DNA of 64,000 nucleotides from Flaccisagitta enflata (taxonomy: Eukaryota), in the NCBI GenBank assembly GCA_965153355.1, contig OZ231126.1, positions 40,300,001 through 40,364,000 of the forward strand. The letters run 5' to 3'. Below the pieces are notes generated by a model. The model had not been told where the DNA came from, searched no databases, and was given only the letters and a program-made list of their open reading frames with translations. Shown one piece after another: positions 1,541 to 52,159 of this stretch. A program made the position numbers and the translations under genes. Each line of letters opens with the position of its first letter. Position 1 is the stretch's first letter.

Positions 1541-2175
1541 TTGGGCAGCGTCCCCAAAGGGGCCGATGACCTATGCTTTCACACATAGGGGAAATTTCTC
1601 CTTCTTCTCCTTCTTCTTCTCCTACGTCCCCACCTCTTCAAGGCCCAAATCAAAGTCTCAAGACCCAAATCCTAGCTTTGAGGCTCAAATTCCCGCTTCA
1701 AAGCTCAAATCCCAGCCTTGAGGCTCAAATCTCAGTCTCCAGGCTAAAATCCCAGCCTCGAGGCTGAAATCCCAGCCCTTAGGCTCAAGGCACAAATCCC
1801 AGCCTTGAAGTCAAATCCTAGCCTCGAAGCTCAAATCCCAGCTTCAAAGCTCAAATCCCACCCCCAAAGCTCAAATCCCAACCTCAAAGCTCAGATCCCA
1901 GCCTCGAAGCTCAAATCCCAGCCTCGAAGCTCTAATCTCAGCCTTGAAGCTGAAATCACAGCCTTGAAGCTCAAATCCCAGCCTCAAGGCCCTTATCCAA
2001 GCCTCAAGGCCCCAATTCCAGCCTCCAGGTCCTAATTCCATCCTTGAGGCCCAAATAACAACAGCATAGGTCATCGGCCCCTTCGGGGCCGCTGCCCCTC
2101 TAACCACCTTACACCCACATACACTCACATAGGGGCAACGGGTACCGCTGACCATCTAACGCTTTTGCGACTATT
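1541..2175 (+). mobile_element. Non-autonomous Helentron-derived element (HINE family B)
   Basis: Starts with a T-run and GGGCAGCG..GGGGCCGATGACCTATGC; internal ~20-bp GCTCAAATCCCAGCCTYGAR repeats; inverted subterminal copy GCATAGGTCATCGGCCCCTTCGGGGCCGCTGCCC; ends in hairpin CGCTTTTGCG + ACTATT. Confidence 0.8.
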
Positions 2176-4907: not shown

Positions 4908-4929
4908 GAAATTGCCAGAATCTACAAAC

Positions 4930-5690
4930 CTTAAAGGGCTTTAAAGGGCCTTAAAGAGCCTTAGAGGGCCTTAAAGGGCCTCAAAGGGCCTTCCTTAAAG
5001 GGCCTTCCTTAATGGGCCTTAAAGGGCCTTAAGGGCCTTAAAGGGCTTCAAAGGGCCTTGAAGGGCCTTAAAGGGCCTTAAAGGGCCTTAAAGGGCCCTA
5101 AAGGGCCTTAAAGGGCCTGAAAGAGCCTAAAAGGACCTTAAAGGTCCTTAAAGGGCCTAAAAAGGTCTTAAAGGGCTTTAAAGGGCCTTAAAGGGCCTTA
5201 AAGGGCCTTAAAGGGCCTTAAAGGGCCTTCCTTAAAGGGCCTTCCTTAATGGGCCTTAAAGGGCCTAAAAGGGCCTTATAGGGCTTTAAAGGGCCTTCCT
5301 GAAAGGGCCTTCCTTAATGGGCCCTAAAGGGCCTTAAAGGGCTTTAAAGGGCCTTGAAAAGCCCTAACGGGCCTTATAGGGCCTTAAAGGGTCTTAAAGG
5401 GCCTAAAAGGGCCTTAAAGGGCCTTAAAGGGCCTAAAAGGGTCTCAAAGAGCCTTAAAAGGCCTCAAAGGGCCTTCCTCAAAGGGCCTTCCTTAAAGGGC
5501 CTTGAAGGGCCTTAAAGGGCCTTTAAGGGCCTCAAGGGGCCTTCCTTAAAGGGCCTTCGCTAAAGGGCCTTAAAGGGCCTTAAAGGGCCTTAAAGGGCCT
5601 TAAAGGGCCTAAAAGGGTCTCAAAGAGCCTTAAAGGGCCTTAAAGGGCCTTCCTTAAAGGGCCTTCCTTAATGGGCCTTAAAGGGCCTAA
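4930..5690 (-). repeat. TAAGGCCCTT satellite, reverse orientation
   Basis: (AAGGGCCTTA)n array; contains the empty-site copy of the large element insertion at 5261-5275. Confidence 0.95.
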
Positions 5691-6176
5691 TAGTCGCAAA
5701 AGCGTTAGATGGTCAGCGGTACCCGTTGCCCCTATGTGTGTGTAAGTGGGTGTGAGGTGGTTAGAGGGGCAGCGGCCCCGAAGGGGCCGATGACCTATGC
5801 TGTCTTTATTTGGGTCTCAAGGATGGAATTAGGGCCTGGCGGCTGGAATTGGGGCCTTGAGGCTTAGATTAGGCTTGGATTTGAGCTTCGAGGCTGGGAT
5901 TTCAGCATATCGGGGTAGGGGGGTGTGGATGAGGATTGAAGCCTCTGATCACCCATCAACAATACAACATGAATACTACCAGGAACGCATCACTATTTGA
6001 GGTTATGTCCACCCATCCATCTGTCCGTCCATTCAACTGTCCACCGATCTAATCATTGTCCGTCTTTCTATTTGGTTGTCTATCCGTCCGTCTGTCTAGC
6101 TCTCTGTTGGTCGGTCTGTAACATCTTTTTTATTCACTATTTGTTCAAATACACAAATAAATTTTCCAAGGATGTA

Positions 6177-7358: not shown

Positions 7359-9285
<1,927 letters not shown>

Positions 9286-9426: not shown

Positions 9427-12400
9427 ATGACGATAAATGGATTGTTGCTGACTGATAGTTTGTTGAAAGAATGCTCATTTGCGGCAAGGCGGCTTTTGAT
9501 TAAGAACTACCGTCTGAATGAGCTGAATGTGCGGTCATTCCCAGGTAAAACCACTGACCAACTGATTGGTGGGAATGGTGAAATTCATGCTCTTATGCGT
9601 GACAAATCTTATGATTATGTTTACTTGGTTGCTGGAGCTAACGATTTTAATCGTAATGAGGATGATTGCCATGTGATGAAATGCAAAATGATTGCAAGGG
9701 TGCGCAGCAATCTTGTTCATGGGTTTTGTACCCAATACCCTTTCACAAAGCTTGTCTTGGCTCCTATCCCAATGCGTCGAATGTCCAAAAACCCAGATAT
9801 GATTCACAATCATCCAGAATGCGGTTCAAAAAACTGGATTGACACAACCAACAACGCAATATCACTCTATCAGAGTTGTTTTTCTGTCTGTGCTTGTCAC
9901 AAAGATCAGGTGAGGTCTGTCATCTCCCCCACTCTGGATCATTGGCTTCCCTATTTGACATCGGATGGGTTGCATTTGACAGATGGAACAAAGGGCCAAA
10001 CTGATGGCAAGTTAAAAATGGTTCAGTACCTCCTTAAACCCAAATCCAAATTTTCACTTTTACAGGATGATTTTCCTCCTTTGCCAGAAGCTTCAGGTTC
10101 TTTTTCATTTGAGCCACAGGTTGTCGTCCCAAAGGTGGTTCGCAGAGAAAAGCCTAATCCTAACTTGTTTATCCACCAGTGTTGCCTTGCCCAGGATGTT
10201 TCATTCAAAGGTCCCATCAAAAAGGCTTGTAAGCAAGAGTCAAAATCACCTGTTTCTTTGCCAAAATTTGCGCCCGTTCCTCGCAAAAGGCGGAAGAAGC
10301 CAAAGAAAGAAAATCAGTGGATTTTTCCCGTTTCTAATGACAAATTTTGTTTTTCCCAGTCCAATCATCTTCCGCGTGCGAAGCCCAAAATCAAACATGC
10401 GAAGAAAGTAGGGAACAAAGATCAACAGCGGGAGGAACATAGTAAGAAATGGCAGAAACAAATTCCATGGTATGAGCGTCCAGAGAACACTTGGAGTGAA
10501 CCAGAGGTACCCAGGGGAAGAGGTTTGGTTAAACAAAATTTTAGGCTAGACTCTTCTCCTTCATTAAAGCGACAACCTCATGTGAAACAGCAACCTGTAA
10601 GGAACAAGGATTTGCAGGTTAAATTGCGTCAAAAGTTATTTTTCTTTAGAAATGCACGAAGACCTCAAGTTAGGGAAAGCGCATTTATACATGATAATCT
10701 AAAGAAAAATGTCGATTCTAACATTAACTTTGATGATATTGATGGTGCTGATGATCACTGTCATAACAATGACTGGGGAGAACTAGGTGATAATTATCTA
10801 GCAATGGCTGGCCCAGAAAAGTGGAATTTTGAAAAATCAAACCCCTTGCCAAAAAAGAAGCTGTCTAAAAAACAGCTAAAGAACGCAATGAAAAAAATAA
10901 AAAAATTCTTAAATCCTATGTTGAAAAGTATGTCAGAGGAAGCAGAGAAAAATGAGGACAAAATAGTACTGACTTACAGATCAAAACATGGGTGTCTCAT
11001 AGAATTGGAAAAAAGTAACGGGAAGACTGAGACCCTAGTTGATCATTTGACTACTAAAAATGATTCCAGTCGCAACAAAAACAGGAAAAAAAATTCCCAA
11101 GGTGATGAAGATCACTCTTTGTTAGGGGGAGCAAAACAGAGATCTAAGAGTAAAGAGGCGCAAAGAAAACAAAATCAACGGGCAAGTAGAGCAAAAAATT
11201 TATCAAAAGAGGAAATTGAAGAACATCAGTCAAAAGAAAGAGCAAGGAAAAAAGAAGCATATGAAAGAAATAAAGATGAGATTTTGTCAAACAGACAAAT
11301 GCATTATGCGCAAAACAAAGATGAGATTTTATCTAATAAGCAAAAGCATTACTATCAAAACAAAGATGAGATTCTAACAAATAGGCAAATGCATTACAAT
11401 CAAAACAAAGATGAGATTCTAACAAATAGGCAAATGCATTTTAAGCAAAACAAAGATGGGATTTTATCAAACAAAAAAGCACATTATGTGCAAAACAAAG
11501 ATGGAATTTTATCAAATAAGTTAGCACATTATGAGCAAAACAAGGATGGTATTTTGTCAAACAGGCAAGCACATTATGAGCAAAACAAAGATGGTATTTT
11601 GTCTAACAGGCAAGCTTATTATGAACAATATAAAGATGGTATTTTATCAAATAAGCAAGCACATTATGAGCAGCACAAAGACGAGATTTTATCAAACAAG
11701 CAAAACCACTACAAAAGCAACCAAACAGACATTTTAAACCGGAAACGCAGCAATTACAATGACAAAAAAGGAGTATCATCTGCAAAATCAACAGCAAAAA
11801 GATATAAAGGTGCAAAAGCACATCAAAGAAAATTAAGATTGGCAAAAAATCTGAAATTAACTACTGTTAAAATGCATGATGAAAGCTACAAGGCCAATAG
11901 ACAAGACATCATTGCCAACTACCAAAATTTTTATGATCTGATCAAGTATGGGCCGGATTTTGTCTGTACATGTTGTCACCGTGGTCTGTTTGAAAATCAA
12001 GTTAAGAAATTGCCCAAAGGCTTCAATACTACAGTCAAAATTGGCAAAACAGATTATGACTGCTCAACGGACAAAATGAGTTTTGATGGAGATGAATACA
12101 TCTGTGAAACATGTTATACTAATTTGAAAAAAGGAAATATGCCCAAGTATGCGGTGGCCAATGGGAATGAATTGCCGTTTGTTCCTCCTGAAATAAAATG
12201 CTTGAATGAAGGTGAGGAAAGATGTGTTGCTCCTCGTGTGCAATTCATTCGTATGCAAAAACTTGGTTGTGATAGACAGAAGGGAATTAAGTCTAACATT
12301 GTGAATGTTCCTATTGATGTTGGGAAACTGAATTTGCAGTTACCATGTCCATCTTTAGAAAATCAGGTGCTTCAATTGCGTTTTAAGAGAAAGTTGTCGT

Positions 12401-15400
12401 ATGAGCATGACTATTTGGCCCAAAATGTTGATCTAAACAAGATCAAGGATGCTTTGAACATACTTGCTAGCTCGGAATTGTATAAGGAAGCTGGTGTTGA
12501 AATTGATGTTGAGAACTTTAAAAAGCTTGATGAAAACAAAAATGCACTTATGCAGGAATGTCTAGAAAATATGACCATCGATGATGCCTCTAATAATGAT
12601 GATGGCAATGCTGAGGTTCAGGCTGATTCTGAGAATGTTGATCAAGAGGAGGATGATGACGATGATGATGATTGGGATGAGTTGGGTGATGACTATCCCA
12701 CTAACATAGGCAATGATGATACAATGGTAATAAATGAAAGTGATGAATTGAAAGACATGATGAATGCCAGGAATGATTTGTCTGTTGCCCCGGGGGAGGG
12801 GCAAACGCCTCTTCCCCTTACTCTAGATACATTTTGTGAAGACCTGGCCTACCCAACTCTCAATGCAGGGGAAAAACCTAGAGATCACATTGTACCAATG
12901 TCCTTCAAAGACAAATGCAAAGTTCAGCTCATGCACGCTGACAATCGATACAGAATGCATCCAACCTATTTGTTTTCAATTTATCGCAAAGCCGAAACCA
13001 TACTTCATAAACAAAATATTCAAATTAGCATGAAGAAAGGTAAAAAAGTTGATGGGGCCTCAGTAACCGCCAAGGATGTTTTGGGTAATGATTTTCAAAA
13101 CATTCTTAGGCATGATGGTGGTTACAAAGTTCTTGATTCAAACCGTTGTAGCCCAGCTTATTGGCAAAAGGTAAAGGGTGAACTATTTGCAATGGTTAGA
13201 CAACTGGGAATGCCGACCTGGTTTCTCACCTTTTCTGCGGCAGAAACCTGGTGGCCAGAACTGATAAGATCCTTGAAGAAAGATTTAGATGGAACTATAT
13301 TGTCAGACAAAGAAATATATGAAATGCCGTGGATAGAAAAAGTCAAATTGATAAGAGCCAATGCAGTTTTATGTGCCCGGCAATTTAATCATCGATTTGA
13401 GGCTTTTTTAAAAACAGTTTTAAAAGAAAAATTGCATTACGATAACAATCTAGATGATTACTTTTTTCGCATTGAGTTCCAACAAAGGGGGTCACCGCAT
13501 GTCCACTTAATTATGTGGAAGCATGATGCCCCTAAGTATGGAATTCAAAGCAATGAAGAGATTTGTCAATATATAGACAAGTATGTTAAATGCTCTATAT
13601 CTTCAGAAGATAAGGAAAATGTTCCATTCCATCTACATTGTCAAATTCATAAACACACTGAATGTTGTAAAAAAAGGAATAGGAAGGAATGTAGGTTCAA
13701 ATTTCCAAGATATCCTATGGATAAGACTAGAATTATTGAACCTCATGATTGGGGACTGTATGTGAAAAAAAATTTTTCTCATCTAGATGAAGTGCAGCAA
13801 AAAGAGATAGAATCACAATTTAAAAAAGAAAACAAAGAACGTAAAGCTTGCATTTTGAAATTTCTAAATGAAATGGATCAAAATGATCCAACATTTTTTT
13901 CTATGTCATTTGAAACTTTTCTCAATACCCTAGATATGGACATTGATAAATACTGCTTGGCAATTGCATCTTTTTTGAAGCGCTCAGAAATCTTCATGAA
14001 AAGGGAGCTTAAAGATGTAAGAGTTAATAATTATAATGATGATCTCTTAAAAGCGTGGATTGGGAATATGGATATCCAATACATATTGGATCCATATTCC
14101 GTTTGTATGTATGTAATAAATTACATTGGAAAATCTTATCGCGGGATGAGTAGATTACTTAGACAAGTAGTAGCTGATTGCAAAAAGAAAAACTCATCAT
14201 TAAAAACAAAAATGACTAGAATCTGTAAAGAATTCCAGGGTGCTAGTGAGGTGTCTGCTCAAGAAGTTGCCTATGATCTTTGTCAATTACATAAAACCAA
14301 ATCAACAAGGACAAAAGTATGGATCAACACTTATCCTAAACATGAACGTGTAAAGATGTTAAAAAGCAAAGATCAATTAAAAAACATGAATGAAGACGCT
14401 GAAAATATCTTTATAGACAATTTACACACCCGATACAGTAAAAGGTCTAGGGAGGAAGAACAATTATCTTTAGTTGACTATGCATTAGGCGTGTCGGGGA
14501 GAAAAAAGGTCCTTCAATACTACCAATATTCCCCTGAGATGGATATGGAAAATTATGCTAGAGTCCTTCTAATGTTGTTTATTCCATGGAGAGATGAAGA
14601 TAAACTTTGTGGTGACTTTGAAACGCACACTGACCGTTATCTATTGTTAAAAGATTATTTAGAAAACAAAAGATCTGAGTTACATAAGATAGATGAACAA
14701 AAACTGGAAGCCTTGTCAAAAGACCCTGAAATAAACGAATTTAGTGATAATTTAGTGCCGACTTTAGACAATGATGAAAATGCGGCTGCTCTTGTTAATG
14801 AGTTGCAAAACGATGGGCCCATTGACAAAGAAAATGTTGACCTTGATTTAATTCATGAATTGGGTGAAGATTATTTTAGAAATGAAGAAGTTAAAATCAA
14901 GAAATACACATCTAGCGCTGAAGAACAAAATGCTATTTATCGCAGTTTGAACAGACGACAAAAAGAAATTTTTTATGACGTCATTAGAAGAGTGCAGCTT
15001 AACATTCCTATAAGAATTATGATCATGGGTGAAGCTGGTACGGGAAAGTCAAGATTATTGCAGGCGATGAACATGTGGGTAGATAATTTTTACTCCAGTA
15101 TAAGAAGTAATGACCCAAACTCTGCCTACTCCATAATATGCTCCTATACCGGAAACGCTGCCTTCAACTCTGGAGGTATGACTTTTCATAGTGCTTTAGG
15201 TATGAAAATAAACCAAAATCTGTCTGATGACTCAGTTTTTGGCTTGATTAGCGACAAACATTTGCAGCAATTGATAGATGCATTTGCCAACATAAGATTT
15301 TTGTGTGCTGATGAGTTCACTTACATAGGCGCCCACATGAATACAAAGATAAACAAACACTTAAAGACCATAAAACAGACAACTAGCGACTATGGCGGTC

Positions 15401-18105
15401 TCGATACTGTTTTTTTTGGAGATCCACGTCAACTTGGACCCATGTTTGATGACTGGATCTTTGAAGCGGACAAAAAACATCCTTGCGGTCCCATTGTAGG
15501 TGATATTTTGTTTAAAAGTTTTCAGAGTTTCACTTTGAATGAGATCATGCGACAAGATGATGAATCTTACATTAAAGCTCTTAACGACCTTTCAAATCCA
15601 TCATCACCTATGAGAGCCGAGAGTATAAAACTTTTTAAACAGCGAGAAATTAAGGAACAAGACATTGATTACTTGCCAAATTGTAGAGTGGATTATTTTC
15701 AAGAAAATAAGGATGTTGATCGTCACAACCTTGAAACATTGGACAAATTAGAAACTGAAAAGTATGAAGTAAATGCTAAGGTTACCTTGCTAGGTGATGC
15801 GACAAATGATGTCAAAAAGACACTTTTGAGTAAAATTAAGGAGGACAATAATCCTAAAGCAACAATGGGTTTACTTTTACATCTTCCATTGAAACTAGGC
15901 GCCAGGTATTTCATTCCAACAAATATTTGTATTAATGACGGTTTGGTTAACGGAGCAATCGGGACTCTCATGGACATAGATTTTAGCTCAAAAAATCGAC
16001 CTTTGACATTGTGGGTAAAGTTTGACAATGAAAAAGTTGGTGTTGACGCAAGGTCAAGGGTGAGGAATGGGTCTAAGTTCAAAAAACGATGCGATGATGG
16101 TTGGACACCCATTACAAAAATAACAAAACAATTCCCAACTTCTCGCATCAAGATATTTGGAATAATAAATCAGTTTCCATTGGCTCTAGGCTATTCATTC
16201 ACTATTGCAAAATGCCAGGGAAATAATAACATAGGTATTCACACTGTAATTCATTTGAACAAGAAGGCTCTCTCAAGGAGAGAGCAGTATGTAGCCTTTT
16301 CGAGAAGTGATAAGCTGGAAAATTTACATATTGTTGGTAATTTTACAGACCCATGGTTTAAAGAAGAGGAACGCAGAAAGAAGAAATTTCCTCAATTAAT
16401 CACAGAGGACAGAGTGTGTAATGCATTTAAAGAACTTGAAAAGAAAGAAGTAGAATTAATTTGGAAGCCATTATACAAATTTCCTAATGAATCACTAAAA
16501 TTAGTTTTCCACAATGTGAACAGTTTAATGCCTCATTTGGAAGACATCAAAATGGACTACAGTACTATGGCTGCAGATGTATGCTTTTTTTTAGACAACC
16601 GGTCAAAACCTAGTGATAATGTTTTCCTAAACAATTTTGTCATAAAAGATCAAATACTTATGGAAACAGAACTTAGGGTTCCTGGAGGCATTCTAATCTT
16701 GGTTAAGCCACACATTAATATTAAGATAATCAAAAAGGTTCAAGAAAAAGCGAATGACTATTATGGACTTGCATTAACATGCATGATAGATGATACAATT
16801 ATCGTTGCGGTATATTTCAGCCCAAAATGCCCTTTGAGTTACATAAAAACATGCATTAACAAGGCCTTAGAGGGTTCTGAAGGATTTCCAAGGATAATGA
16901 TAGGAGGGGATTTTAATCAGAAGAACGATGTACAATTTTTGATTGATATTGGTTTTAAAAATTTTGTGACACTTCCAACAACTAAATGGCTAACAAAAAT
17001 AGACCATTTGTATGCCAATTTTGATAAAGAGATTTTAACATGGGTTAATCCTAGCTACTTTTCTGACCACCATAGCATTATCACAATCATAGGGGATGAC
17101 AACTCTGTTCATTTGGAAAATGTTGCGCCCAAATTTGATGAATGTATGAAAGAAGTTGATAAAAGTGTTCTTTCTGAAAATGTTGTGCCCAATTCAGATG
17201 AATGTATGGATGTTGATGTTACCATAGAAAAATCTTTGACTGATATAAGTAAAGGTAATTTCCATAGATTGAAAAATTCATGGAACACTTGCTGGCTTAA
17301 CAGTATATTTCAAGCTTTGTGGGCAATATTAGCAACAGATACTGAGTTTTCTTTATCATCAACTACTGATATTGCAAGTGTCATTTTTAATTGGATTTTT
17401 GATAAATCTAAAAAGATTCCTCAAACATTTGATCTGTACAAAGAGAAAATCTCAGATCTATCACTTAAAAAAACATTCTTAATGTCGATTGGGAAATTCA
17501 ATGAGCTACAAATGAAGAGCCAAGAAGATGCTGTTGAGGCAATTCAGGAATTCATTAATCAATGTGATAGTTTAATGCCACTACGACATTCTCAGATGGA
17601 AATTTATTACTGTCCTACATGCGGATCTGAGCAAACCACATGTTTGCAGGAAACAATCCTAACAATCCCAATTCAGTCCAAATTTATCAATGGAGGAAAA
17701 TTTGATTTTGGCAGTGCAGTGTTGAGTCTTTTTGGTCAATATGAAAATTCTGAAAAAGTCTGTAATGACCCATCATGTCGCTTTCAGTGTCAAAAGAAAT
17801 CAATGCTAGTCGGAAAACCAAGATATCTTATGATAAATCTAAATAGAGCAGGTCCAAATAATAAAAAAATTCATACTGCTTGTATCATTTCTAGCAACTT
17901 GACAATCAACACTACAGAGGGACCTACTCATTTTGAACTTATTTCTGTCGTGAAACATATTGGGCCAAGTTCTAATTCTGGACATTACATATGTTACAGA
18001 AAATCGGAAGAAGGTTGGTTTGAAATTAATGACGATTCAATCAGAATTATTAACATTTCAACTATGGAAACCGCAAATCTTTTTATATATAAGGAAAAAA
18101 AATGA
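9427..18105 (+). CDS. Helentron/Helitron2 RepHel polyprotein, 2892 aa: SGNH hydrolase, 15-aa repeats, Zn-binding region, HUH Rep, Pif1 helicase, APE-like endonuclease, USP/peptidase C19
   Basis: Rep motifs PTWFLTFS (aa 1263), EFQQRGSPHVH (1350-1360, with the Ser typical of Helentron/Helitron2), YVINYIGK (1562-1569). Pif1 motifs GEAGTGKS (1868), ADEF, GDPRQL, MRQ, DGLVNG, QFPL, YVAFSR. APE motifs HNVNSL, VY.SP, GDFN, IDH, SDH. SGNH blocks TDS, PG, GAND, DGLH. USP Cys box NTCWLNS..Q and His box GHY..W..INDD. Confidence 0.95.
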   Translation: MTINGLLLTDSLLKECSFAARRLLIKNYRLNELNVRSFPGKTTDQLIGGNGEIHALMRDKSYDYVYLVAGANDFNRNEDDCHVMKCKMIARVRSNLVHGFCTQYPFTKLVLAPIPMRRMSKNPDMIHNHPECGSKNWIDTTNNAISLYQSCFSVCACHKDQVRSVISPTLDHWLPYLTSDGLHLTDGTKGQTDGKLKMVQYLLKPKSKFSLLQDDFPPLPEASGSFSFEPQVVVPKVVRREKPNPNLFIHQCCLAQDVSFKGPIKKACKQESKSPVSLPKFAPVPRKRRKKPKKENQWIFPVSNDKFCFSQSNHLPRAKPKIKHAKKVGNKDQQREEHSKKWQKQIPWYERPENTWSEPEVPRGRGLVKQNFRLDSSPSLKRQPHVKQQPVRNKDLQVKLRQKLFFFRNARRPQVRESAFIHDNLKKNVDSNINFDDIDGADDHCHNNDWGELGDNYLAMAGPEKWNFEKSNPLPKKKLSKKQLKNAMKKIKKFLNPMLKSMSEEAEKNEDKIVLTYRSKHGCLIELEKSNGKTETLVDHLTTKNDSSRNKNRKKNSQGDEDHSLLGGAKQRSKSKEAQRKQNQRASRAKNLSKEEIEEHQSKERARKKEAYERNKDEILSNRQMHYAQNKDEILSNKQKHYYQNKDEILTNRQMHYNQNKDEILTNRQMHFKQNKDGILSNKKAHYVQNKDGILSNKLAHYEQNKDGILSNRQAHYEQNKDGILSNRQAYYEQYKDGILSNKQAHYEQHKDEILSNKQNHYKSNQTDILNRKRSNYNDKKGVSSAKSTAKRYKGAKAHQRKLRLAKNLKLTTVKMHDESYKANRQDIIANYQNFYDLIKYGPDFVCTCCHRGLFENQVKKLPKGFNTTVKIGKTDYDCSTDKMSFDGDEYICETCYTNLKKGNMPKYAVANGNELPFVPPEIKCLNEGEERCVAPRVQFIRMQKLGCDRQKGIKSNIVNVPIDVGKLNLQLPCPSLENQVLQLRFKRKLSYEHDYLAQNVDLNKIKDALNILASSELYKEAGVEIDVENFKKLDENKNALMQECLENMTIDDASNNDDGNAEVQADSENVDQEEDDDDDDDWDELGDDYPTNIGNDDTMVINESDELKDMMNARNDLSVAPGEGQTPLPLTLDTFCEDLAYPTLNAGEKPRDHIVPMSFKDKCKVQLMHADNRYRMHPTYLFSIYRKAETILHKQNIQISMKKGKKVDGASVTAKDVLGNDFQNILRHDGGYKVLDSNRCSPAYWQKVKGELFAMVRQLGMPTWFLTFSAAETWWPELIRSLKKDLDGTILSDKEIYEMPWIEKVKLIRANAVLCARQFNHRFEAFLKTVLKEKLHYDNNLDDYFFRIEFQQRGSPHVHLIMWKHDAPKYGIQSNEEICQYIDKYVKCSISSEDKENVPFHLHCQIHKHTECCKKRNRKECRFKFPRYPMDKTRIIEPHDWGLYVKKNFSHLDEVQQKEIESQFKKENKERKACILKFLNEMDQNDPTFFSMSFETFLNTLDMDIDKYCLAIASFLKRSEIFMKRELKDVRVNNYNDDLLKAWIGNMDIQYILDPYSVCMYVINYIGKSYRGMSRLLRQVVADCKKKNSSLKTKMTRICKEFQGASEVSAQEVAYDLCQLHKTKSTRTKVWINTYPKHERVKMLKSKDQLKNMNEDAENIFIDNLHTRYSKRSREEEQLSLVDYALGVSGRKKVLQYYQYSPEMDMENYARVLLMLFIPWRDEDKLCGDFETHTDRYLLLKDYLENKRSELHKIDEQKLEALSKDPEINEFSDNLVPTLDNDENAAALVNELQNDGPIDKENVDLDLIHELGEDYFRNEEVKIKKYTSSAEEQNAIYRSLNRRQKEIFYDVIRRVQLNIPIRIMIMGEAGTGKSRLLQAMNMWVDNFYSSIRSNDPNSAYSIICSYTGNAAFNSGGMTFHSALGMKINQNLSDDSVFGLISDKHLQQLIDAFANIRFLCADEFTYIGAHMNTKINKHLKTIKQTTSDYGGLDTVFFGDPRQLGPMFDDWIFEADKKHPCGPIVGDILFKSFQSFTLNEIMRQDDESYIKALNDLSNPSSPMRAESIKLFKQREIKEQDIDYLPNCRVDYFQENKDVDRHNLETLDKLETEKYEVNAKVTLLGDATNDVKKTLLSKIKEDNNPKATMGLLLHLPLKLGARYFIPTNICINDGLVNGAIGTLMDIDFSSKNRPLTLWVKFDNEKVGVDARSRVRNGSKFKKRCDDGWTPITKITKQFPTSRIKIFGIINQFPLALGYSFTIAKCQGNNNIGIHTVIHLNKKALSRREQYVAFSRSDKLENLHIVGNFTDPWFKEEERRKKKFPQLITEDRVCNAFKELEKKEVELIWKPLYKFPNESLKLVFHNVNSLMPHLEDIKMDYSTMAADVCFFLDNRSKPSDNVFLNNFVIKDQILMETELRVPGGILILVKPHINIKIIKKVQEKANDYYGLALTCMIDDTIIVAVYFSPKCPLSYIKTCINKALEGSEGFPRIMIGGDFNQKNDVQFLIDIGFKNFVTLPTTKWLTKIDHLYANFDKEILTWVNPSYFSDHHSIITIIGDDNSVHLENVAPKFDECMKEVDKSVLSENVVPNSDECMDVDVTIEKSLTDISKGNFHRLKNSWNTCWLNSIFQALWAILATDTEFSLSSTTDIASVIFNWIFDKSKKIPQTFDLYKEKISDLSLKKTFLMSIGKFNELQMKSQEDAVEAIQEFINQCDSLMPLRHSQMEIYYCPTCGSEQTTCLQETILTIPIQSKFINGGKFDFGSAVLSLFGQYENSEKVCNDPSCRFQCQKKSMLVGKPRYLMINLNRAGPNNKKIHTACIISSNLTINTTEGPTHFELISVVKHIGPSSNSGHYICYRKSEEGWFEINDDSIRIINISTMETANLFIYKEKK
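11269..11763 (+). repeat. Coding 45-bp tandem repeat, ~11 x NKD(E/G)ILSN(R/K)QxHYxQ
   Basis: Visible in translation, aa ~615-779. Confidence 0.9.
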
Positions 18106-19344
18106 GTGTATGGATTTTCTAATCATGTGTGATTTATTCATGCCATTTATTTAAACATTTTATCCATATATTTATTCTTATTATCAAAGACACAAATCAA
18201 TGGTTTCAACAAAAAAATAGCCAACAGCTGACTATCCGTAATTGGGTAGTGAATTTATTCATGCTATTTGTTCATGCCATTTATTCATCTGGTTTATTCA
18301 TGCAATTTATTCATGAACTCATTCTTGTTGATATTAAGGATGTAAAAGCGGTCGATTTTAGTGCCGCTCCCACTGCTTACGCTTCTACTTCCTCTTCCAT
18401 TTTGTAGTTAAAATACTAGTAGCTATCCCATCCTCCAAAATGGAAGTGGTCAATCGCTTCCACATCCTTAGTTGATACCAAAAAAATGAGGCTAACGGCT
18501 GGCTATCCATTAATCAATTTGATTGAGTACTTATGTTTGATTGAGCATTAGAAAGAAAAGCCTCTTGAATGGGTTAGGGGTGTCAATGGTAAGGATGGCC
18601 ATTCACATCGATTCCTTTCCTTTAAGGCGTGCTAAAATGATTTAATACAGTACTTGAGCATTGGTAGTATAAAAAACGTATGTAAATGGTTTTTTTCACT
18701 GTACTTAGTGACAAAAGTGATTTTTTTACTACTCATGCCCCTGTACTTTATTGAGCATTTGGTACACTTAATTGGATAAAAGTAACGCGCGGAGCAGCAT
18801 CTACCTCCTGGGTCGCGTGGAAACGGCTGCACTAATCAGTTCACATGTGAGCTAATTAGTGCAGCCATTCCAGATGATTTTAAGCTATATTTCAGAGCTA
18901 TGAAAAACGCAAATTTGTGGACAAAGATGAGGAAGTAAAGATGGCGAATAAAGATTGAGTGGTCTAGCCCAAAGAAACCGCAAAAATGTGTAAATTCTAC
19001 AGCAAGTCATTCTGGTGGTGAAACATGCAGCTGAAAGAAGATGGTGGTGAACACAGAATCAGAAGAAAACCAATGGCCAATAAGCCAATGGGCCAATAAG
19101 CAAGGCTGACACCTTTCAGTCGCGTGCAGTTTTTAAGACCATCAGACCAAAAGACAGATATATTGAAGACCAGGAGACCAAAAGACTAACAGGCAAAATG
19201 AAAATGGACTTAAATCAACTTTGAATAACTTAGAATGACTTAAAATGACTTAAAATGGTGTAAAACAACGAAAATAAGCTTAGGGCTATTGACAGTCGGA
19301 CCAACGGACTGACCAACAGACCATCGGAGTGAGTTGTAGAGTAA

Positions 19345-19895
19345 GAAGAAAGTTGGTGATGCATCTGAAGAGTTGGTGATTAATCAGAAGAGTCGCTGAT
19401 CTATGGAAGAGTTGCTGATCTATGGAGGAGTCGCTGATATACAGAAGAGTTGCTGATATACGGAAGAGTTGCTGATCTACAAAAGAGTCGCTGATCTATG
19501 GAAGCGTCGCTGATCTACGGAAGAGTCGCTGATCTACGGAAGAGTCGCTGATCTACGGAAGAGTTGCTGATCTATGGACGAGTCACTGATTTATGGAAGA
19601 GACGCTGATTTAAGGAAGAGACGCTGATGTACGAAAGAGACGCTGATATAACGAAAAGACGTTGATTTATGGAAGAGTCGCTGATCTACAGAAGAGTTGC
19701 TGATCTATGGAAGAGTTGCTGATCTACAGAAGAGTCGCAAATGTACGGAAGAGATGCTGATCTGCAAAAGAGACGTTGATGTACCAAAGAGACGCTAATA
19801 TATGGAAGAGACGTTGATATACGGAAAAGACACTGATTAAGGGAGAGATGCTGATATACAGAAGAGACGTTGATATGTGGAAGAGACGCTGATAC
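19345..19895. repeat. 19-bp tandem repeat (GAAGAGTCGCTGATCTACG), about 29 units
   Basis: Contiguous diverged units, no spacers. Confidence 0.9.
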
Positions 19896-20229
19896 ATTTG
19901 ACCAAAGGCAACAAAGGTTCTAAAAGAGGAAACGCATTACATTTGATATGATTCTCTGTGAGTGACATTTCTTGAAATCATTGTTAATAAATGTAGTTGA
20001 AAAAAATATCATTTCTTGCTCCTTGTTACTGACATAAATATCTGCTCTTCATGGCTTATATCAAAGGGGGAAAGGGATGTAGGACTGAGCTTTTAAGTGG
20101 AAAGGTTTGAACTGAAAATAGGGTTTTCCAGCTGGTTAGGAATTCATTTATGCAATTTATTCATGGAATAAGAGCTTTGGGGTTAGGGGAGATAAAGAGC
20201 ATGAGAAATAATTGTGATTATATGGGACT

Positions 20230-22489
20230 AGAATGAACAAGCCGATGATCTACGCCATGTTGTGATTTGAGCCACAAAGCTCAGATTTGAGCCAAGAGAT
20301 TGGAATCTGAGTTTTTGATTGGGATTTAAGCCACAAGATTGGGATTTGAGCCTTCAGCCTGAGATTTGAGCTTGGGGTTGGAATTTGAACCTAAGGCCTG
20401 AGGCTGTGATTTGAGCCTTTAGGAGAAGGATGAGGAAGAGAAGGAAGGTAAGAAAGCAGATTTGGGATCAGAATGAAAGGTCACCAGGCCTCAGAGGGGC
20501 CAATGACCTATGCCAGGTTGTAATTCGAGCCATGGGGCTGTTATTTGAGCCCTGAGGCTAGGATATGAGCTATGAGGCTGAGATTTGAGCAACAAGGCTA
20601 GGATGAGCCTTGAAGCTGATATTTGAACCAAAAGGCTGGGATTTGGACCAAGATATTGAAATATGAGCCTTAAGGCTAGGATTCAACTCATAAGGTTTGG
20701 CTTTAAGAATGAGACTAGGATGTGAGCCACAAGGCTGGAATTTAAAGCTAAGATCTACGAGGTCAGCAGGCCCTGAAGGAACCGATGACCTATGCTAGGC
20801 TGTAATTTGAGTCACAAGGCTGGGATTTGAGCCAAAAGATTGAAATATGAATTATGAAGCTGGGAATTAAGCATAAGATTGGGATTTGAGCTCTTAGCCT
20901 GGGATTCAAGCTTGAGACAGTGATTTGGACTTGAGGCTCTGATTTGAGCTTCGAAGCCAGGAGGCGGAGGATGGAAAAGGAGGAGGAGGAGGAGGAGGAG
21001 AAGAAGGAGGAGGGGGGATTTGAGAGGTCAGCAGGCCCCGAAGGGACTGATGACCTATGCTAGGCTGTTATTTGAGTCATAAGGCTGGGATTTGAGCTTC
21101 GAAGCCAGGAGGCGGAGGATGGAAAAGGAGGAGGAGGAGGAGAAGAAGGAGGAGGGGGGATTTGAGAGGTCAGCAGGCCCCGAAGGAACCGATGACCTAT
21201 GCTAGGCTGTAATTTGAGTCATAAGGCTGGGATTAGAGCCAAAAGATTGGAATGTGAGCAATGAAGCTGGGATTTAAGCCATAAGGTTGGAATTTGAGCC
21301 CTGAGCCTGGGTTTCAAGCTCAAGACTGTGATTGGGGCTTGAGGCTGCAATTTGAGCTTTGAAGCTGGGGGGGGGGGAATGGAAAAGGAGGAGGAGGAGA
21401 AGAAGGAAGAGGGGGGACTTGAGAGGTCAGCAGGCCCCGAAGGACCCGATGACCTATGCTAGGCTGTAATTTGAGTCATAAGGCTGGGATTTAAGCCAAA
21501 AGATTGGAATATGAGCGATGAAGCTGGGATTTAAGCCATAAGGTTGGAATTTGAGCCCTGAGCCTGGGATTCAAGCTCGAGACTGTGATTTGGGCTTGAG
21601 GCTGCGATTTGAGCTTCGAAGCCGGGGGAGGGGGGGACGGAGAAGGAGAAGAAGGAGGAGAAGAAGGAAGAGGGGGGATTTGAGAGGTCAGCAGGCCCCG
21701 AAGGACCCGATGACCTATGCTAGGCTGTAATTTGAGTCATAAGGCTGGGATTTGAGCCAAAAGATTGGAATATGAGCGATGAAGCTGGGATTTAAGCCAT
21801 AAGGTTGGAATTTGAGCCCTGAGCCTGGGATTCAAGCTCGAGACTGTGATTGGGGCTTGAGGCTGCAATTTGAGCTTTGAAGCTGGGGGGGGGGGAATGG
21901 AAAAGGAGGAGGAGGAGGAGAAGAAGGAAGAGGGGGGATTTGAGAGGTCAGCAGGCCCCGAAGGACCCGATGACCTATGCTAGGCTGTGATTTGAGTCAT
22001 AAGGCTGGGATTTGAGCCAAAAGATTGGAATATGAGCGATGAAGCTGGGATTTAAGCCATAAGGTTGGAATTTGAGCCCTGAGCCTGGGATTCAAGCTCG
22101 AGACTGTGATTTGGGCTTGAGGCTGCAATTTGAGCTTCGAAGCCGGAGAAGAAGGAGGAGAAGAAGGAAGAGGGGGGATTTGAGAGGTCAGCAGGCCCCG
22201 AAGGACCCGATGACCTATGCTAGGCTGTAATTTGAGTCATAAGGCTGGGATTTGAGCCAAAAGATTGGAATATGAGCGATGAAGCTGGGATTTAAGCCAT
22301 AAGGTTGGAATTTGAGCCCTGAGCCTGGGATTCAAGCTCGAGACTGTGATTTGGGCTTGAGGCTGCGATTTGAGCTTCGAAGCCGGGGGGGGGGGACGGA
22401 GAAGGAGAAGAAGGAGGAGAAGAAGGAGGAGGAGAAAATTTCTCCCTGTGTGAAAGCATAGGTCATCGGCCCCTTCGGGGCCGCTGCCC
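20230..22489 (-). repeat. Tandem array of ~240-bp units built from the family-B terminus
   Basis: Unit marker AGGTCAGCAGGCCCCGAAGGACCCGATGACCTATGC near 20480, 20760, 21025, 21167, 21424, 21685, 21945, 22185; more degenerate leftwards. Confidence 0.85.
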
Positions 22490-22493
22490 AAAA

Positions 22494-25400: not shown

Positions 25401-26295
25401 TAAAAGACTTTAGTTGTATCTTGAAGGGCCTTAAAGGGCCTTAAAGGGCCTTAAAGGGCCTTAAAGGGCCTTCTCCTTAAAGAAGCTCAGTCCATAAGGG
25501 TCTTAAAGGCTTTTAAAGGTCTGAAGGCTCTTTTAAAGGCCTTATAGCCTTCTTCTCAGAGGGCCTTCCTTAATGGGCCTTAAGGCTCCTTTTAAAGGGC
25601 CTTTTTAGAGCAAATTAAAGGGCCCCAGCTGGCCTTAAAGTTAATTTTTGAAATATCTTCCCTAAAGGCCTTCCTAATGGGCCTTAAAGCATCTCAAAAG
25701 GTCTTTTTTTTAGTATTTTTAATAACATAAGTAAATCTTCCTTAAAGGCCTTCAATCTCAAAGTACCTTCGTGCTGGCCTTTAAGGGCTTCTTTAAAGGG
25801 TTTTGAGGCCCTAACGGCCTTAAAGGCCATAACGTGCCTAGTTAGCTCAAAGGGCCCTTTTTTTTTTTTAAGGGCCCCTAAGGGCCTCCTTAAAGGGCCT
25901 TCGTTAAAGGGCCTTCCAAGGGCCTTAATGGCCTAAAAGGTCTTAAAGGGCCTGCATGAAGGTCTCAAAGGGCCTTAAAGGGTCACAAAGGACCTTCCTT
26001 AAAGGGCCTTGAAGGGTTTTTAAAGGGCCTTAAAGGGCCTTAAAGGCCTCAAAGGGCCTTCTCAGCGTCGTCCCAAGCCCTTAAAGGCCTTAAAGCGCCC
26101 AAAGGGCCTCCTTAAAGGCCTTCCTTGCTGGGCCTGAAGGCCTTTGGCGGTCTCTAAAGGACCTCTCAAAGGGCCTTCCTTAAAGGGCCTTAAAGGGCTT
26201 TGAAGGGCGTTAAAGGGCCTTAAAGATCCTTAAAGGGCCTTCATGGGCCTTAAAGGGCCTTGGAGGCCCTGAAAGGGTCTTAAAGGGCCTTAAAG
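22494..26295 (-). repeat. TAAGGCCCTT satellite, reverse orientation, interrupted by HINEs; partly garbled
   Basis: (AAGGGCCTTA)n; many indels between about 23550 and 26200. Confidence 0.85.
22917..23528 (-). mobile_element. HINE family B copy, near-identical to 1541-2175 over its first ~320 bp
   Basis: Spurious ORFs 1871..2155(-) and 22936..23220(+) differ at one residue; same termini. Confidence 0.85.
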
Positions 26296-44959: not shown

Positions 44960-47811
<2,852 letters not shown>

Positions 47812-48496: not shown

Positions 48497-48653
48497 AAGG
48501 GCTATTTAAGGAGGGATGGAATGGGAGGAAGCCAGTCTCAGTTTCAGTCTCAGTCTCATGGTGATTCCAATCTTCTCAACTCTTCCATCGAGAAGACATT
48601 ATTTCGTAAGCCCAAAAAGAAGCCAATCTCGCTCAAAATCCCCGGATTTTAAG

Positions 48654-52079: not shown

Positions 52080-52159
<80 letters not shown>

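What the first reader, a model, noticed from the sequence alone, without database searches (positions are those of the whole stretch)
9427..18105. Rolling-circle transposase polyprotein with an N-terminal SGNH hydrolase and a C-terminal USP deubiquitinase
Seen: one uninterrupted 2892-aa ORF joins at least five enzymatic modules (SGNH, HUH Rep, Pif1, APE-like, USP), with catalytic motifs apparently intact except one APE residue. Established: Helentron/Helitron2 RepHel proteins often carry APE, and some elements carry an OTU protease. Inference: I do not know of an SGNH + RepHel + APE + USP(C19) arrangement, so this may be an undescribed Helitron lineage with its own esterase and deubiquitinase.
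Basis: partly seen in the sequence, partly recalled or inferred. Interest (0 to 1): 0.92.

Follow-up and report, generated by a model that had tools for sequence, protein, structure and literature searches.

The report
Helentron transposase with esterase and deubiquitinase
This is an intact rolling-circle DNA transposon gene (a Helentron) whose single giant protein also carries a lipase-like esterase at its start and a ubiquitin-removing protease at its end, an unusual but not wholly unprecedented set of add-ons.

Summary
Window 9427-18105 (+) is one uninterrupted 2892-aa ORF. All five enzyme modules were confirmed:
- N-terminal SGNH esterase: family profile, AF2 model pLDDT 94, Foldseek hits to SGNH hydrolases.
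- HUH Rep and Pif1 helicase.
- APE/L1-type endonuclease.
- C-terminal USP: Pfam UCH, E 1.1e-24.

It is a Helentron (HLE2). It has DUF6570, the RGSPHxH signature and a fused endonuclease.

UCH/USP domains in HLE2 elements were catalogued in 2024 (HELIANO, PMC11417382), and OTU and VTD deubiquitinases of Helentrons are known (PMC9741609). Two of 50 RepHel homologues carry Pfam UCH, and a third has a USP-like N-terminus. SGNH genes beside fish Helitrons are described (PMC4021074).

I found nothing in the searchable literature on an SGNH domain fused in frame to RepHel. It is shared with one of 50 homologues (P0003), in a distinct, well-supported clade.

The APE "defect" is a clade-wide Glu-to-Asp change.

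A conserved L-x-G-G motif between the SGNH part and RepHel suggests self-processing. This is untested.

Termini, copy number and read support could not be established.

The parts
9427..18105 (+). Single 2892-aa ORF (P0001) of a Helentron-type rolling-circle transposon, stop codon included
   Evidence: G+C is 0.33-0.42 and GC3 0.19-0.40 in all modules, against GC3 0.47-0.48 in two neighbouring long ORFs.
9427..10077 (+). N-terminal SGNH/GDSL-type esterase domain (aa 1-217). Blocks: TDS with S11, G40, GAND with N72, DGLH with D180 and H183
10117..11267 (+). Basic, low-complexity linker (aa 231-613) with a lysine/arginine-rich stretch PRKRRKKPKK. No Pfam family
   Evidence: That the basic stretch is a nuclear localisation signal is inference.
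11119..11130 (+). L-L-G-G (aa 565-568), a candidate ubiquitin-tail-like processing site. It aligns with L-S-G-G of P0003
   Evidence: pairwise E 1e-7. Cleavage is hypothesis only.
11268..11704 (+). 45-bp coding tandem repeat, 9.7 copies, giving a 15-aa repeat (QNKDEILSNxQxHYx)
12130..12519 (+). DUF6570 (aa 902-1031), a Cys-rich region described as an HLE2 marker
   Evidence: E 4e-14; HELIANO passage
12925..14136 (+). HUH Rep nuclease: Helitron_like_N aa 1167-1362, RGSPHVH with H1358 and H1360, then the tyrosine pair Y1562/Y1566 with K1569
   Evidence: invariant columns; Helraiser 7lcc E 3.7e-51
14947..16335 (+). Pif1-like SF1 helicase (aa 1841-2303). Walker A GEAGTGKS 1868-1875, Walker B D1962/E1963
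16489..17091 (+). APE/L1-type (EEP) endonuclease (aa 2355-2555). N2363, D2390 in the place of the usual Glu, Y2463, GDFN 2494-2497, D2526, SDH 2546-2548
17269..18090 (+). C-terminal USP (MEROPS C19, Pfam UCH) domain (aa 2615-2888). Cys box with C2622, His box with H2853, D2869
18132..18316 (+). Five copies of ATTTATTCATGC-like motif just after the stop codon, with a sixth at 20155-20166. Possibly internal 3' sequence of the element
   Evidence: 6 matches, 0.41 expected by chance
18335..18470 (+). Nested DNA hairpin downstream of the ORF
   Evidence: z -4.3
18818..18872 (+). Strong DNA hairpin with 24-nt arms, a candidate 3' stem-loop. Its role is not shown
   Evidence: (z -6.1)
19347..19893 (+). 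19-bp tandem array (about 27 copies) between the hairpins and the sixth motif copy. Possibly the element's internal repeats
   Evidence: That it belongs to the element is inference.

Best explanation
This is an intact, probably autonomous Helentron (Helitron-like element group 2). Its one ORF encodes, in order:
1. an SGNH esterase;
2. a basic linker with a 15-aa repeat;
3. the Cys-rich DUF6570 region;
4. a HUH Rep nuclease;
5. a Pif1 helicase;
6. an APE/L1-type endonuclease;
7. a USP deubiquitinase.

**Shown:** the ORF, the domain identities, and conservation of every catalytic motif.

**Inferred from established knowledge**
- Rep, with its two tyrosines, nicks and joins the transposon strand, and the helicase unwinds it 5' to 3'. 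This is the Helraiser model.
- The endonuclease assists nicking of target or donor DNA.

**Inferred by analogy**
- The USP removes ubiquitin (or a ubiquitin-like modifier) from the transposase or from host factors. This is the role proposed for the VTD deubiquitinases of zebrafish Helentrons, which were shown to be active.
- The SGNH domain is an acyl-esterase used like the ORF1p esterase of CR1/L2-type LINEs, in lipid or membrane contact. Its substrate is unknown.

The SGNH fusion is a lineage trait of a small clade. The C-terminal protease slot has been refilled with different modules within that clade.
For: **ORF and domains:**

**Helentron markers**
- DUF6570.
- 'FFR...QQRGSPHVH' matches the diagnostic F/Y-x-R and G-S-P signature quoted in PMC4067079.
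- A fused endonuclease aligns with 17 homologues, and their joint profile hits L1 EN at E 3e-17.

**Catalytic columns invariant across 18 RepHel proteins:** H1358, H1360, Y1562, Y1566, K1569, G1868/G1871/G1873/K1874, D1962/E1963, N2363, D2495/N2497, D2526, H2548.

**SGNH**
- 50 relatives at E<=1e-3, of which 24 at <=1e-10.
- In the 31-row alignment G40 and N72 are invariant and D180 and H183 nearly so.
- 22 of 31 members hit Lipase_GDSL_2.
- PDB profile hit 2hsj, E 1.2e-4.
- AF2 model: pLDDT 94.0, pTM 0.86.
- Foldseek gave 128 matches at E<=1e-3. The top named enzymes are SGNH esterases, with TM 0.44-0.55.
- Atlas nearest clusters are GDSL-like, score 0.95.

**Lineage**
- P0001 groups with P0002-P0004 with SH-like support 100.
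- P0003 is the only one of those three with a complete N-terminus, and it has the SGNH domain (E 2.3e-25).

**USP**
- C, H and D are invariant among four Helentron USP domains.
- 23 of 50 homologues carry a precomputed OTU, Herpes_teg_N or UCH family, so a DUB module is common in this group.

**Composition:** the USP part (GC3 0.26) is as AT-rich as the APE and link parts (0.32 and 0.29), and unlike the neighbouring ORFs (0.47-0.48).
Against: - **Only one copy.** There is one copy in the window and no genome is held, so mobility and copy number are untested.
- **Termini not found.** No subterminal inverted repeat pair and no TT target were found. The only long inverted match belongs to the surrounding satellites.
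- **Weak single-sequence scores.** SGNH and APE each score below Pfam's gathering cut-offs as single sequences.
- **The USP fold model failed** (pLDDT 39).
- **D2390 replaces the metal-binding Glu** of the endonuclease. Activity may be altered.
- **No expression evidence.**
- **All functional roles of the two add-on enzymes are analogies.**
Confidence: 0.8

Rival explanations
1. The protein is a true polyprotein. Its own C-terminal deubiquitinase cuts after the conserved L-x-G-G (aa 565-568). This would release a protein of about 568 aa (SGNH plus basic tail) from a RepHel-APE-USP protein of about 2324 aa, much as viral papain-like or USP-fold proteases cut polyproteins after LxGG.
For: - LLGG at 565-568 aligns with LSGG of P0003 in a pairwise alignment, E 1e-7.
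- A third SGNH-bearing N-terminal fragment, P0055, has LLGG at 569.
- All 3 SGNH-bearing proteins long enough to cover this region have the motif within ten residues of each other. The pattern [LIVMF]xGG is expected about twice per 2500 aa (my estimate).
- P0049, which has an N-terminal USP, has PLVGG-AK just before that domain.
- The site lies exactly between the accessory esterase and the transposase core.
- That viral LxGG-specific proteases exist is recalled, not taken from a call.
Against: - The motif was found post hoc and is short.
- P0055's motif sits in a different local context.
- P0003 has the motif but no USP. Its C-terminal module has no family assignment.
- There is no biochemical evidence, and no ubiquitin-like fold was shown before the motif.
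Confidence: 0.18
2. The ORF is a domesticated, immobile host gene derived from a Helentron, kept for a cellular function rather than for transposition.
For: - Single copy in 64 kb.
- No recognisable termini.
- The frame is perfectly open.
- Erven et al. note domesticated VTD genes derived from transposons (PMC9741609).
Against: - Every transposition motif is intact: HUH, the two tyrosines, the helicase motifs and the endonuclease.
- Base composition differs from neighbouring ORFs.
- It lies among satellites and a MITE-like unit.
- Several database fragments are 77-94% identical to the N-terminus (P0052, P0053, P0060, P0069, P0072, P0079). This suggests multiple diverged copies, though their origin is unknown.
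Confidence: 0.1
3. The USP (or the SGNH) end is an artefact, either an assembly join or a recent read-through capture of a host exon with no role in the element.
For: - The USP junction is not seen in any of the 50 homologues.
- The closest relatives carry another module there.
- Helitrons are known gene capturers (PMC6431247).
Against: - There is no N, and the frame is unbroken across both junctions.
- The USP part has the element's AT-rich codon make-up, not that of the neighbouring ORFs.
- Its catalytic Cys, His and Asp are intact.
- The SGNH end is shared with P0003, and the start codon position is shared with many family members.
- Other Helentrons carry USP domains at either end.
- One coded DNA run holds 0.76 of the stretch's sampled words, and four marine metagenome runs of another study hold 0.30-0.44. 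None was laid, and the best holder may be the source assembly.
Confidence: 0.07

Closest known systems
Helentrons / HLE2 with VTD (Herpes_teg_N, C76) and OTU deubiquitinase domains, e.g. zebrafish DrT1 and DrT2 (Erven et al. 2022, PMC9741609; passages read)
   Same: [quoted passage not shown]
- 14 of 50 homologues found here carry Herpes_teg_N and 12 of 50 carry OTU.
- The same idea applies: the element benefits from deubiquitination supplied by interchangeable DUB classes.
   Different: - Here the DUB is USP/C19 and sits after the endonuclease at the extreme C-terminus.
- There is also an N-terminal SGNH esterase.
- The activity of this USP is untested.
HLE2 elements with a Pfam UCH domain reported by HELIANO (Li et al. 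2024, PMC11417382; section 22 and passages read, supplement not seen)
   Same: UCH (PF00443) recurs in HLE2 together with DUF6570.
   Different: - In that paper UCH is enriched in subgroups c and d (mostly lungfish and axolotl), and EN in subgroup b.
- The text says 17 of the added domains, UCH by implication, lie in ORFs other than RepHel.
- Here UCH, EN and RepHel are one ORF.
- The words GDSL, SGNH, esterase and lipase are absent from its main text.
Database RepHel proteins with USP: P0031 (JGI, 2252 aa, APE then C-terminal UCH), P0033 (Brachionus calyciflorus, N-terminal UCH) and P0049 (N-terminal USP-like)
   Same: - USP fused to a Helentron RepHel. P0031 has the same order, Rep-Hel-APE-USP.
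   Different: - None has an SGNH domain.
- Their USP domains are only 22% identical to this one (phmmer E 6e-6 to 8e-3).
- They fall outside this protein's clade.
P0003, P0002 and P0004 (unnamed ENA proteins, 42-48% identical), the nearest relatives
   Same: - Collinear over DUF6570, Rep, helicase and APE.
- Same Glu-to-Asp change in the endonuclease.
- P0003 has the N-terminal SGNH domain and the L-x-G-G motif.
   Different: - Their C-terminal module of about 170 aa (QxGLSCGY ... GNHW) is not a USP and has no Pfam family.
- Atlas leads to CE-clan peptidases score below 0.9.
- P0002 and P0004 lack their N-termini.
texim SGNH hydrolase genes linked to Helitrons in fish (Tomaszkiewicz et al. 2014, PMC4021074; abstract and passages read)
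   Same: An SGNH esterase travels with a rolling-circle transposon. The authors raised a possible role in Helitron transposition.
   Different: - texim is a separate, intron-bearing gene next to the Helitron, not part of the transposase ORF.
- Sequence relatedness to this domain was not tested here.
ORF1p esterase of CR1/L2-type non-LTR retrotransposons (ZfL2-1; Schneider et al. 2013, PMC3905857; abstract read)
   Same: An SGNH-type esterase encoded by a mobile element. Helentron endonucleases also resemble LINE endonucleases.
   Different: - A different transposon class and a separate ORF1 protein with a coiled coil.
- The ZfL2-1 esterase did not appear among the 12 PDB sequence hits at E<=1, nor in the listed Foldseek ranks up to 50. 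No special kinship is shown.
Helraiser (bat Helitron transposase, PDB 7lcc)
   Same: HUH Rep plus Pif1-like helicase core. Profile E 3.7e-51.
   Different: Helraiser is a Helitron (HLE1) without endonuclease, DUB or esterase.

Membership tests
Helentron / HLE2 rolling-circle transposon | RepHel protein: HUH motif and catalytic tyrosine pair, followed by a Pif1-like helicase | tested here: met
   Helitron_like_N E 8e-26 and PIF1 E 1.6e-16. H1358/H1360, Y1562/Y1566, Walker A and Walker B are invariant in 18 sequences. Helraiser E 3.7e-51.
Helentron / HLE2 rolling-circle transposon | AP-type endonuclease fused to the C-terminus of RepHel | tested here: met
   aa 2355-2555 align with the endonuclease of 17 homologues. 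The profile hits L1 EN at E 3.2e-17 and ExoIII at 3.6e-4.
Helentron / HLE2 rolling-circle transposon | Diagnostic Rep signature: F/Y-x-R before motif 2, and Ser in R-G-S-P-H-x-H (Thomas et al. 2014) | tested here: met
   The sequence reads DYFFRIEFQQRGSPHVH. The criterion is quoted from PMC4067079.
Helentron / HLE2 rolling-circle transposon | DUF6570 upstream of Rep (HLE2 marker per HELIANO) | tested here: met
   PF20209 E 4e-14, above the cut-off. Criterion from PMC11417382.
Helentron / HLE2 rolling-circle transposon | Ends: 12-15-bp subterminal inverted repeats, a short 3' stem-loop, insertion into TT | tested here: inconclusive
   Two strong hairpins lie downstream. No matching inverted partner was found between 5.7-9.4 kb and 18.1-22.5 kb other than satellite sequence. 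One copy only, so the ends cannot be defined.
Helentron / HLE2 rolling-circle transposon | Multiple copies or evidence of mobility | not testable with these tools
   No genome is held. One copy in the window. Locus scans came back empty.
SGNH/GDSL hydrolase | Conserved blocks with catalytic Ser (I), Gly (II), Asn (III) and Asp-x-x-His (V) | tested here: met
   TDS with S11, G40, GAND with N72, D180-G-L-H183. G40 and N72 are invariant, and D180 and H183 at least 90% conserved, in 31 sequences.
SGNH/GDSL hydrolase | Score above Pfam's curated cut-off | tested here: not met
   Lipase_GDSL_2 scores 25.9 bits against a cut-off of 32.9. At family level, 22 of 31 members match at E<=0.01, best 5.3e-9.
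SGNH/GDSL hydrolase | Flavodoxin-like SGNH fold | tested here: met
   AF2 model pLDDT 94.0. Foldseek top hits are acetyl-xylan esterase, TesA, PAF-AH and sialate O-acetylesterase, E 3e-6 to 5e-5, probability 1.00, TM 0.44-0.55.
SGNH/GDSL hydrolase | Esterase activity | not testable with these tools
   Needs an enzyme assay.
USP deubiquitinase (MEROPS C19, Pfam UCH PF00443) | Full-length match above the curated cut-off | tested here: met
   87.9 bits against 23.9, E 1.1e-24, profile positions 3-254 of 254.
USP deubiquitinase (MEROPS C19, Pfam UCH PF00443) | Cys box and His box with catalytic Cys, His and Asp/Asn | tested here: met
   NTC(2622)WLNS aligns with the USP21 Cys box, and GH(2853)Y...ND(2869) with its His box. 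These residues are invariant in four Helentron USPs.
USP deubiquitinase (MEROPS C19, Pfam UCH PF00443) | USP fold | tested here: inconclusive
   The single-sequence AF2 model has pLDDT 39.4 and is unusable.
USP deubiquitinase (MEROPS C19, Pfam UCH PF00443) | Ubiquitin or ubiquitin-like hydrolase activity | not testable with these tools
   Needs activity-based probes or AMC substrates.
EEP (APE/L1-type) endonuclease | Catalytic residues N, E, Y, D, N, D, D, H | tested here: inconclusive
   All are present except the Glu, which is Asp (D2390). The change is found in 4 of 4 members of this clade, while 14 of 14 other homologues keep Glu. Its conservation argues for a working variant, but activity is unknown.

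The most novel reading that the evidence does not exclude
This would be a DNA transposon that makes a self-processing polyprotein. The C-terminal USP (or, in sister elements, another Cys-His module) would cut after a conserved ubiquitin-tail-like L-x-G-G at aa 565-568. That would free an SGNH esterase protein from the RepHel-APE-DUB transposase. The esterase would then act as a separate accessory factor, comparable to LINE ORF1p esterases. Helentron DUB domains in general would double as maturation proteases, as in many RNA viruses.
Probability: 0.15. Interest if true: 0.8.

Novelty: new variant of a known kind. Interest (0 to 1): 0.45.

Why it matters
Helentrons are abundant in animal genomes, yet the purpose of their extra enzymes is unknown.

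- **DUB slot turnover.** This element adds a third deubiquitinase class (USP) in frame with a transposase that also carries the endonuclease. Within one small clade the C-terminal protease slot has been refilled with a different module. This strengthens the view that deubiquitination, or GG-specific proteolysis, is a selected function of these transposons.
- **Esterase recruitment.** The in-frame SGNH esterase parallels the unexplained esterases of CR1/L2 LINEs and the texim genes next to fish Helitrons. Unrelated transposon classes may therefore recruit the same enzyme. Here it comes as a compact, intact ORF in which that role could be tested.
- **Processing.** If the L-x-G-G site is really cut, it would be the first polyprotein processing described for a rolling-circle DNA transposon.

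Tried and rejected
- **Whole-genome copy search.** No genome is held for this window.
- **Reads.** Read continuity, RNA evidence and element ends from other insertions were therefore not obtained.
- **The look-up of sequencing runs.** No RNA holder was listed.
- **Earlier notes of this scan.** Nothing was found.
- **Long proteins sharing the USP or SGNH ends by word search.** None scored. This search needs shared 5-mers, so it is weak evidence of absence.
- **Locus scans for relatives.** After that, metagenome contigs with the SGNH alignment and with the clade alignment, and viral contigs, all found nothing.
- **USP single-sequence structure.** pLDDT 39, discarded, no fold search made.
- **Complex prediction of the USP domain with aa 505-580.** No answer, score 0.00, the alignment was not used. 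This is no evidence either way.
- **Termini.** No shared 11-mers between the flanks. The 13-mer search with one mismatch found only satellite-derived inverted matches at 5770-5802 / 22454-22486 and two weak 12-of-13 matches. The 3' hairpin arm has no other copy in the window.
- **C-terminal module of P0002 and P0003.** No Pfam family. Atlas scores are at most 0.86, leads only, to CE-clan peptidases.
- **Other long ORFs of the window.** No informative Pfam family, so the host could not be named.
- **Rejected: the APE domain is degenerate.** The Glu-to-Asp change is conserved across the clade.
- **Rejected: the large inverted match marks transposon ends.** It belongs to satellite blocks repeated throughout the window.
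Full report
**1. The observation**

Window 9427-18105 (+) is a single ORF of 2892 codons starting at ATG. Read from stop to stop it begins at 9421, so the ATG is the first possible start. The next longest frame anywhere in the 64-kb window is 873 aa. The window contains no N. At about 36% G+C roughly 7% of random codons are stops. By my own arithmetic, an open frame of this length has a chance of about 1e-90. The ORF is real.

**2. The core modules**

A whole-protein Pfam scan found four families:
- Helitron_like_N: aa 1167-1362, E 8e-26.
- PIF1: aa 1841-2047, E 1.6e-16.
- DUF6570: aa 902-1031, E 4e-14.
- Only weak traces of GDSL and Exo_endo_phos_2.

PDB sequence search gave Pif1 helicases at E about 5e-12 and weak USP hits.

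Scanning the ends as separate pieces changed the picture:
- The last 303 aa match Pfam UCH (the USP/C19 family) at E 1.1e-24, 87.9 bits against a cut-off of 23.9, over profile positions 3-254 of 254.
- The first 230 aa match Lipase_GDSL_2 at E 1.6e-5, 25.9 bits, below the 32.9 cut-off.
- The piece after the helicase matches Exo_endo_phos_2 at E 1e-4, below the cut-off.

The USP Cys box (NTCWLNS) and His box (GHY...ND) align with those of human USP21.

**3. The SGNH end**

A full HMMER search of 1.84 billion representatives with aa 1-230 found 50 proteins at E<=1e-3, of which 24 were at <=1e-10 and 15 at <=1e-30.

I aligned 30 of these 50 with the query and left out 20 short or partial rows. 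In this alignment G40 and N72 are invariant and D180 and H183 are nearly invariant. The block I consensus is SDS; here it is TDS, with S11.

Further support:
- 22 of the 31 rows hit Lipase_GDSL_2 at E<=0.01.
- The family profile hits PDB SGNH proteins, best 2hsj at E 1.2e-4.
- With this alignment AlphaFold2 gave pLDDT 94.0 and pTM 0.86.
- Foldseek against the PDB gave 128 matches at E<=1e-3. The top named enzymes are acetyl-xylan esterase, E. coli TesA, PAF acetylhydrolases and sialate O-acetylesterases, with TM 0.44-0.55.
- The protein atlas places it next to clusters of GDSL-like proteins of about 196 aa, score 0.95.

So the N-terminus is an SGNH hydrolase with a complete catalytic set, although it fails Pfam's own threshold as a single sequence.

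**4. The endonuclease**

BLAST of aa 2330-2600 matches the C-terminal region of 28 of the 50 homologues. A profile of 18 RepHel proteins hits L1 endonucleases (2v0s E 3.2e-17, 1vyb 7.7e-16) and ExoIII (3.6e-4) at its C-terminal positions. The same profile also hits Helraiser (7lcc, 3.7e-51) and Pif1 (9e-72).

N2363, Y2463, GDFN 2494-2497, D2526, S2546 and H2548 are invariant.

The four members of this protein's clade all have Asp, and the other 14 aligned homologues all have Glu. It is a conserved lineage variant, not decay.

**5. What kind of element**

A word-indexed search with aa 880-2892 found 50 long homologues. These include proteins annotated from Branchiostoma, oysters, midges, a firefly and a rotifer.

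Their precomputed Pfam domains:

| Domain | Homologues out of 50 |
|---|---|
| OTU | 12 |
| Herpes_teg_N (VTD) | 14 |
| UCH | 2 (P0031, P0033) |

Five homologues have both OTU and VTD, so 23 of 50 carry a known DUB-class domain. A 24th, P0049, has a USP-like N-terminus.

Three features place the ORF in Helentron/HLE2:
- the fused endonuclease;
- DUF6570;
- the Rep signature DYFFR...QQRGSPHVH, which matches the diagnostic features quoted from Thomas et al. 2014 (PMC4067079) and HELIANO (PMC11417382).

**6. The lineage**

The nearest relatives are P0002, P0003 and P0004 (42-48% identity).

I built a FastTree tree of the Rep-to-helicase core with 50 rows. P0047 was left out because it lacks a helicase match. 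In this tree P0001 is sister to the other three, with SH-like support 100 on a long stem.

An HMM of the SGNH family hits only P0003 among the 50 homologues (E 2.3e-25; all others E>=0.76). P0002 and P0004 begin downstream of that region. The two clade members with complete N-termini therefore both have the esterase.

None of the three has a USP. After the endonuclease they carry a module of about 170 aa with conserved QxGLSCGY ... GNHW. It has no Pfam family and only sub-threshold atlas leads to CE-clan peptidases.

The other USP-bearing Helentron proteins lie elsewhere in the tree: P0031 and P0033 in the sister group, P0049 far away. Their USP domains are only 22% identical to this one. USP modules are thus scattered among Helentrons. 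Independent gain cannot be told apart from old presence with loss.

**7. Chimera or capture?**

Against these readings:
- The frame is unbroken, and the SGNH-to-APE order is reproduced in P0003.
- All modules share low GC3: 0.19-0.40 overall, USP 0.26, APE 0.32. Two neighbouring long ORFs have 0.47-0.48.

Still open:
- The USP junction itself has no independent witness.
- The run listing is not independent proof. One coded DNA run holds 0.76 of the sampled words and four marine metagenome runs of another study hold 0.30-0.44, but none was laid.

**8. Ends and surroundings**

There is only one copy in the window. The ORF sits among microsatellites and 10- and 20-bp satellites that recur in both orientations across the window.

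Downstream of the ORF there are:
- five copies of an ATTTATTCATGC-like motif at 18132-18316, with a sixth at 20155;
- two strong DNA hairpins, 18335-18470 (z -4.3) and 18818-18872 (z -6.1);
- a 19-bp array at 19347-19893.

These fit the general Helentron picture of a 3' stem-loop and internal repeats (PMC4067079). I found no subterminal inverted repeat pair, so the ends are undefined.

**9. A possible processing site**

Between the esterase and the transposase core lies HSLLGG-AKQRSK (aa 565-568).
- In a pairwise alignment of this region with P0003 (E 1e-7), LLGG aligns with LSGG.
- P0055, another SGNH-bearing N-terminal fragment, has LLGG at 569.
- P0049 has PLVGG-AK before its USP.

USPs and several viral proteases cut after such ubiquitin-tail-like motifs (recalled). 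Self-processing is therefore conceivable. The finding is post hoc and untested. A complex prediction gave no answer.

**10. Literature**

- **Erven et al. 2022 (PMC9741609, passages read).** Most non-viral VTD domains lie in Helentron ORFs. Three zebrafish ones are active on ubiquitin, and two of them also on NEDD8. OTU domains occur beside or instead of them. The authors propose that different DUB classes serve the same need.
- **HELIANO (PMC11417382, section 22 and passages read).** UCH is among 20 domains stably included in Helitron-like elements, almost only in HLE2 and enriched in subgroups c and d, with EN in subgroup b. The text states that 17 of the domains lie in ORFs other than RepHel. 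The words GDSL, SGNH, esterase and lipase do not occur in its main text.
- **Tomaszkiewicz et al. 2014 (PMC4021074, abstract and passages read).** Intron-bearing SGNH genes (texim) lie next to Helitrons in fish and are related to CR1 esterases and PAF-AH.
- **Schneider et al. 2013 (PMC3905857, abstract read).** The LINE ORF1p esterase is active and binds lipids.
- **Arkhipova and Yushenova 2019 (PMC6431247, passages read).** The paper lists RPA, OTU and AP-EN as Helentron add-ons, and GDSL esterases in other giant elements.

None of my searches listed a paper describing an SGNH domain within a RepHel ORF:

| Search terms | Papers |
|---|---|
| Helitron + ubiquitin-specific protease | 13 |
| Helentron + esterase | 2 |
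| Helitron + SGNH | 11 |
| Helentron + USP | 1 |
| Helitron + deubiquitinase | 10 |
| Helitron + GDSL | 20, of which 12 listed |

For most of these papers I saw only titles and the first lines of the abstracts. Subscription journals, Repbase and Dfam were not searchable.

**11. Verdict**

The element is an intact Helentron ORF.

The novelty claim must be reduced:
- A USP on a Helentron is a known kind of add-on.
- Deubiquitinases on Helentrons are established.
- An SGNH-Helitron link is in print.

What appears new:
- the in-frame SGNH-RepHel fusion as a lineage trait;
- the SGNH + APE + USP combination in one protein;
- the replacement of the C-terminal protease module within one clade;
- the conserved L-x-G-G motif.

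I rate it a new variant of a known kind, of moderate interest.

Noticed in passing
window 8406-8599: A 194-bp unit bounded by perfect 12-bp inverted repeats (AGATGCGTCATC; 3 matches in the window against 0.08 expected). It encloses a (GTCC)n microsatellite at 8438-8483. It looks like a MITE/HINE-type non-autonomous element, and the reference list of PMC4067079 cites MITEs with hitchhiking (GTCY)n microsatellites. Its repeats do not recur at the Helentron's flanks.
   Followed up: partly
window 1-1541, 4929-5651, 22491-22912, 24420-29576 and elsewhere: The window is dominated by a 10-bp satellite (TTTAAGGCCC) and a 20-bp satellite (AGGCTGGGATTTGAGCC...) in both orientations, with composite blocks repeated up to at least 40 kb. 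The Helentron lies in a satellite-rich, possibly heterochromatic region.
   Followed up: partly
window 11268-11704 (aa 614-760 of the ORF): A 45-bp tandem repeat, 9.7 copies at 82% match, encodes a 15-aa peptide repeat (QNKDEILSNxQxHYx). Two other Helentron proteins (P0031, P0033) have unrelated short peptide repeats at the same relative place, upstream of DUF6570. The function is unknown; it may be a nucleic-acid-binding repeat.
   Followed up: no
P0002 aa ~1795-1975, P0003 aa ~2610-2791, P0004 aa ~1560-1731: The nearest relatives end in a conserved module of about 170 aa, with Gln and Cys (QxGLSCGY) and a terminal GNHW, in the place of the USP. It has no Pfam family. Atlas leads to Ulp1, adenain and poxvirus core proteases score only 0.82-0.86. 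It may be an unclassified cysteine protease.
   Followed up: partly
window 48510-56162 (+) and 46016-47509 (-): Several long ORFs (873, 445, 522, 368 and 497 aa) are rich in Cys pairs and in poly-Asn, poly-Ala and poly-Ser runs. None has a Pfam family at E<=0.01 except a weak Vir1p trace. They are probably host or other repeat-derived genes.
   Followed up: no
P0001, whole protein against its pieces: The whole-protein Pfam scan did not report the UCH domain, yet the same domain scores E 1.1e-24 when cut out. Precomputed domain lists for long, low-complexity Helentron proteins may therefore under-report terminal domains.
   Followed up: yes
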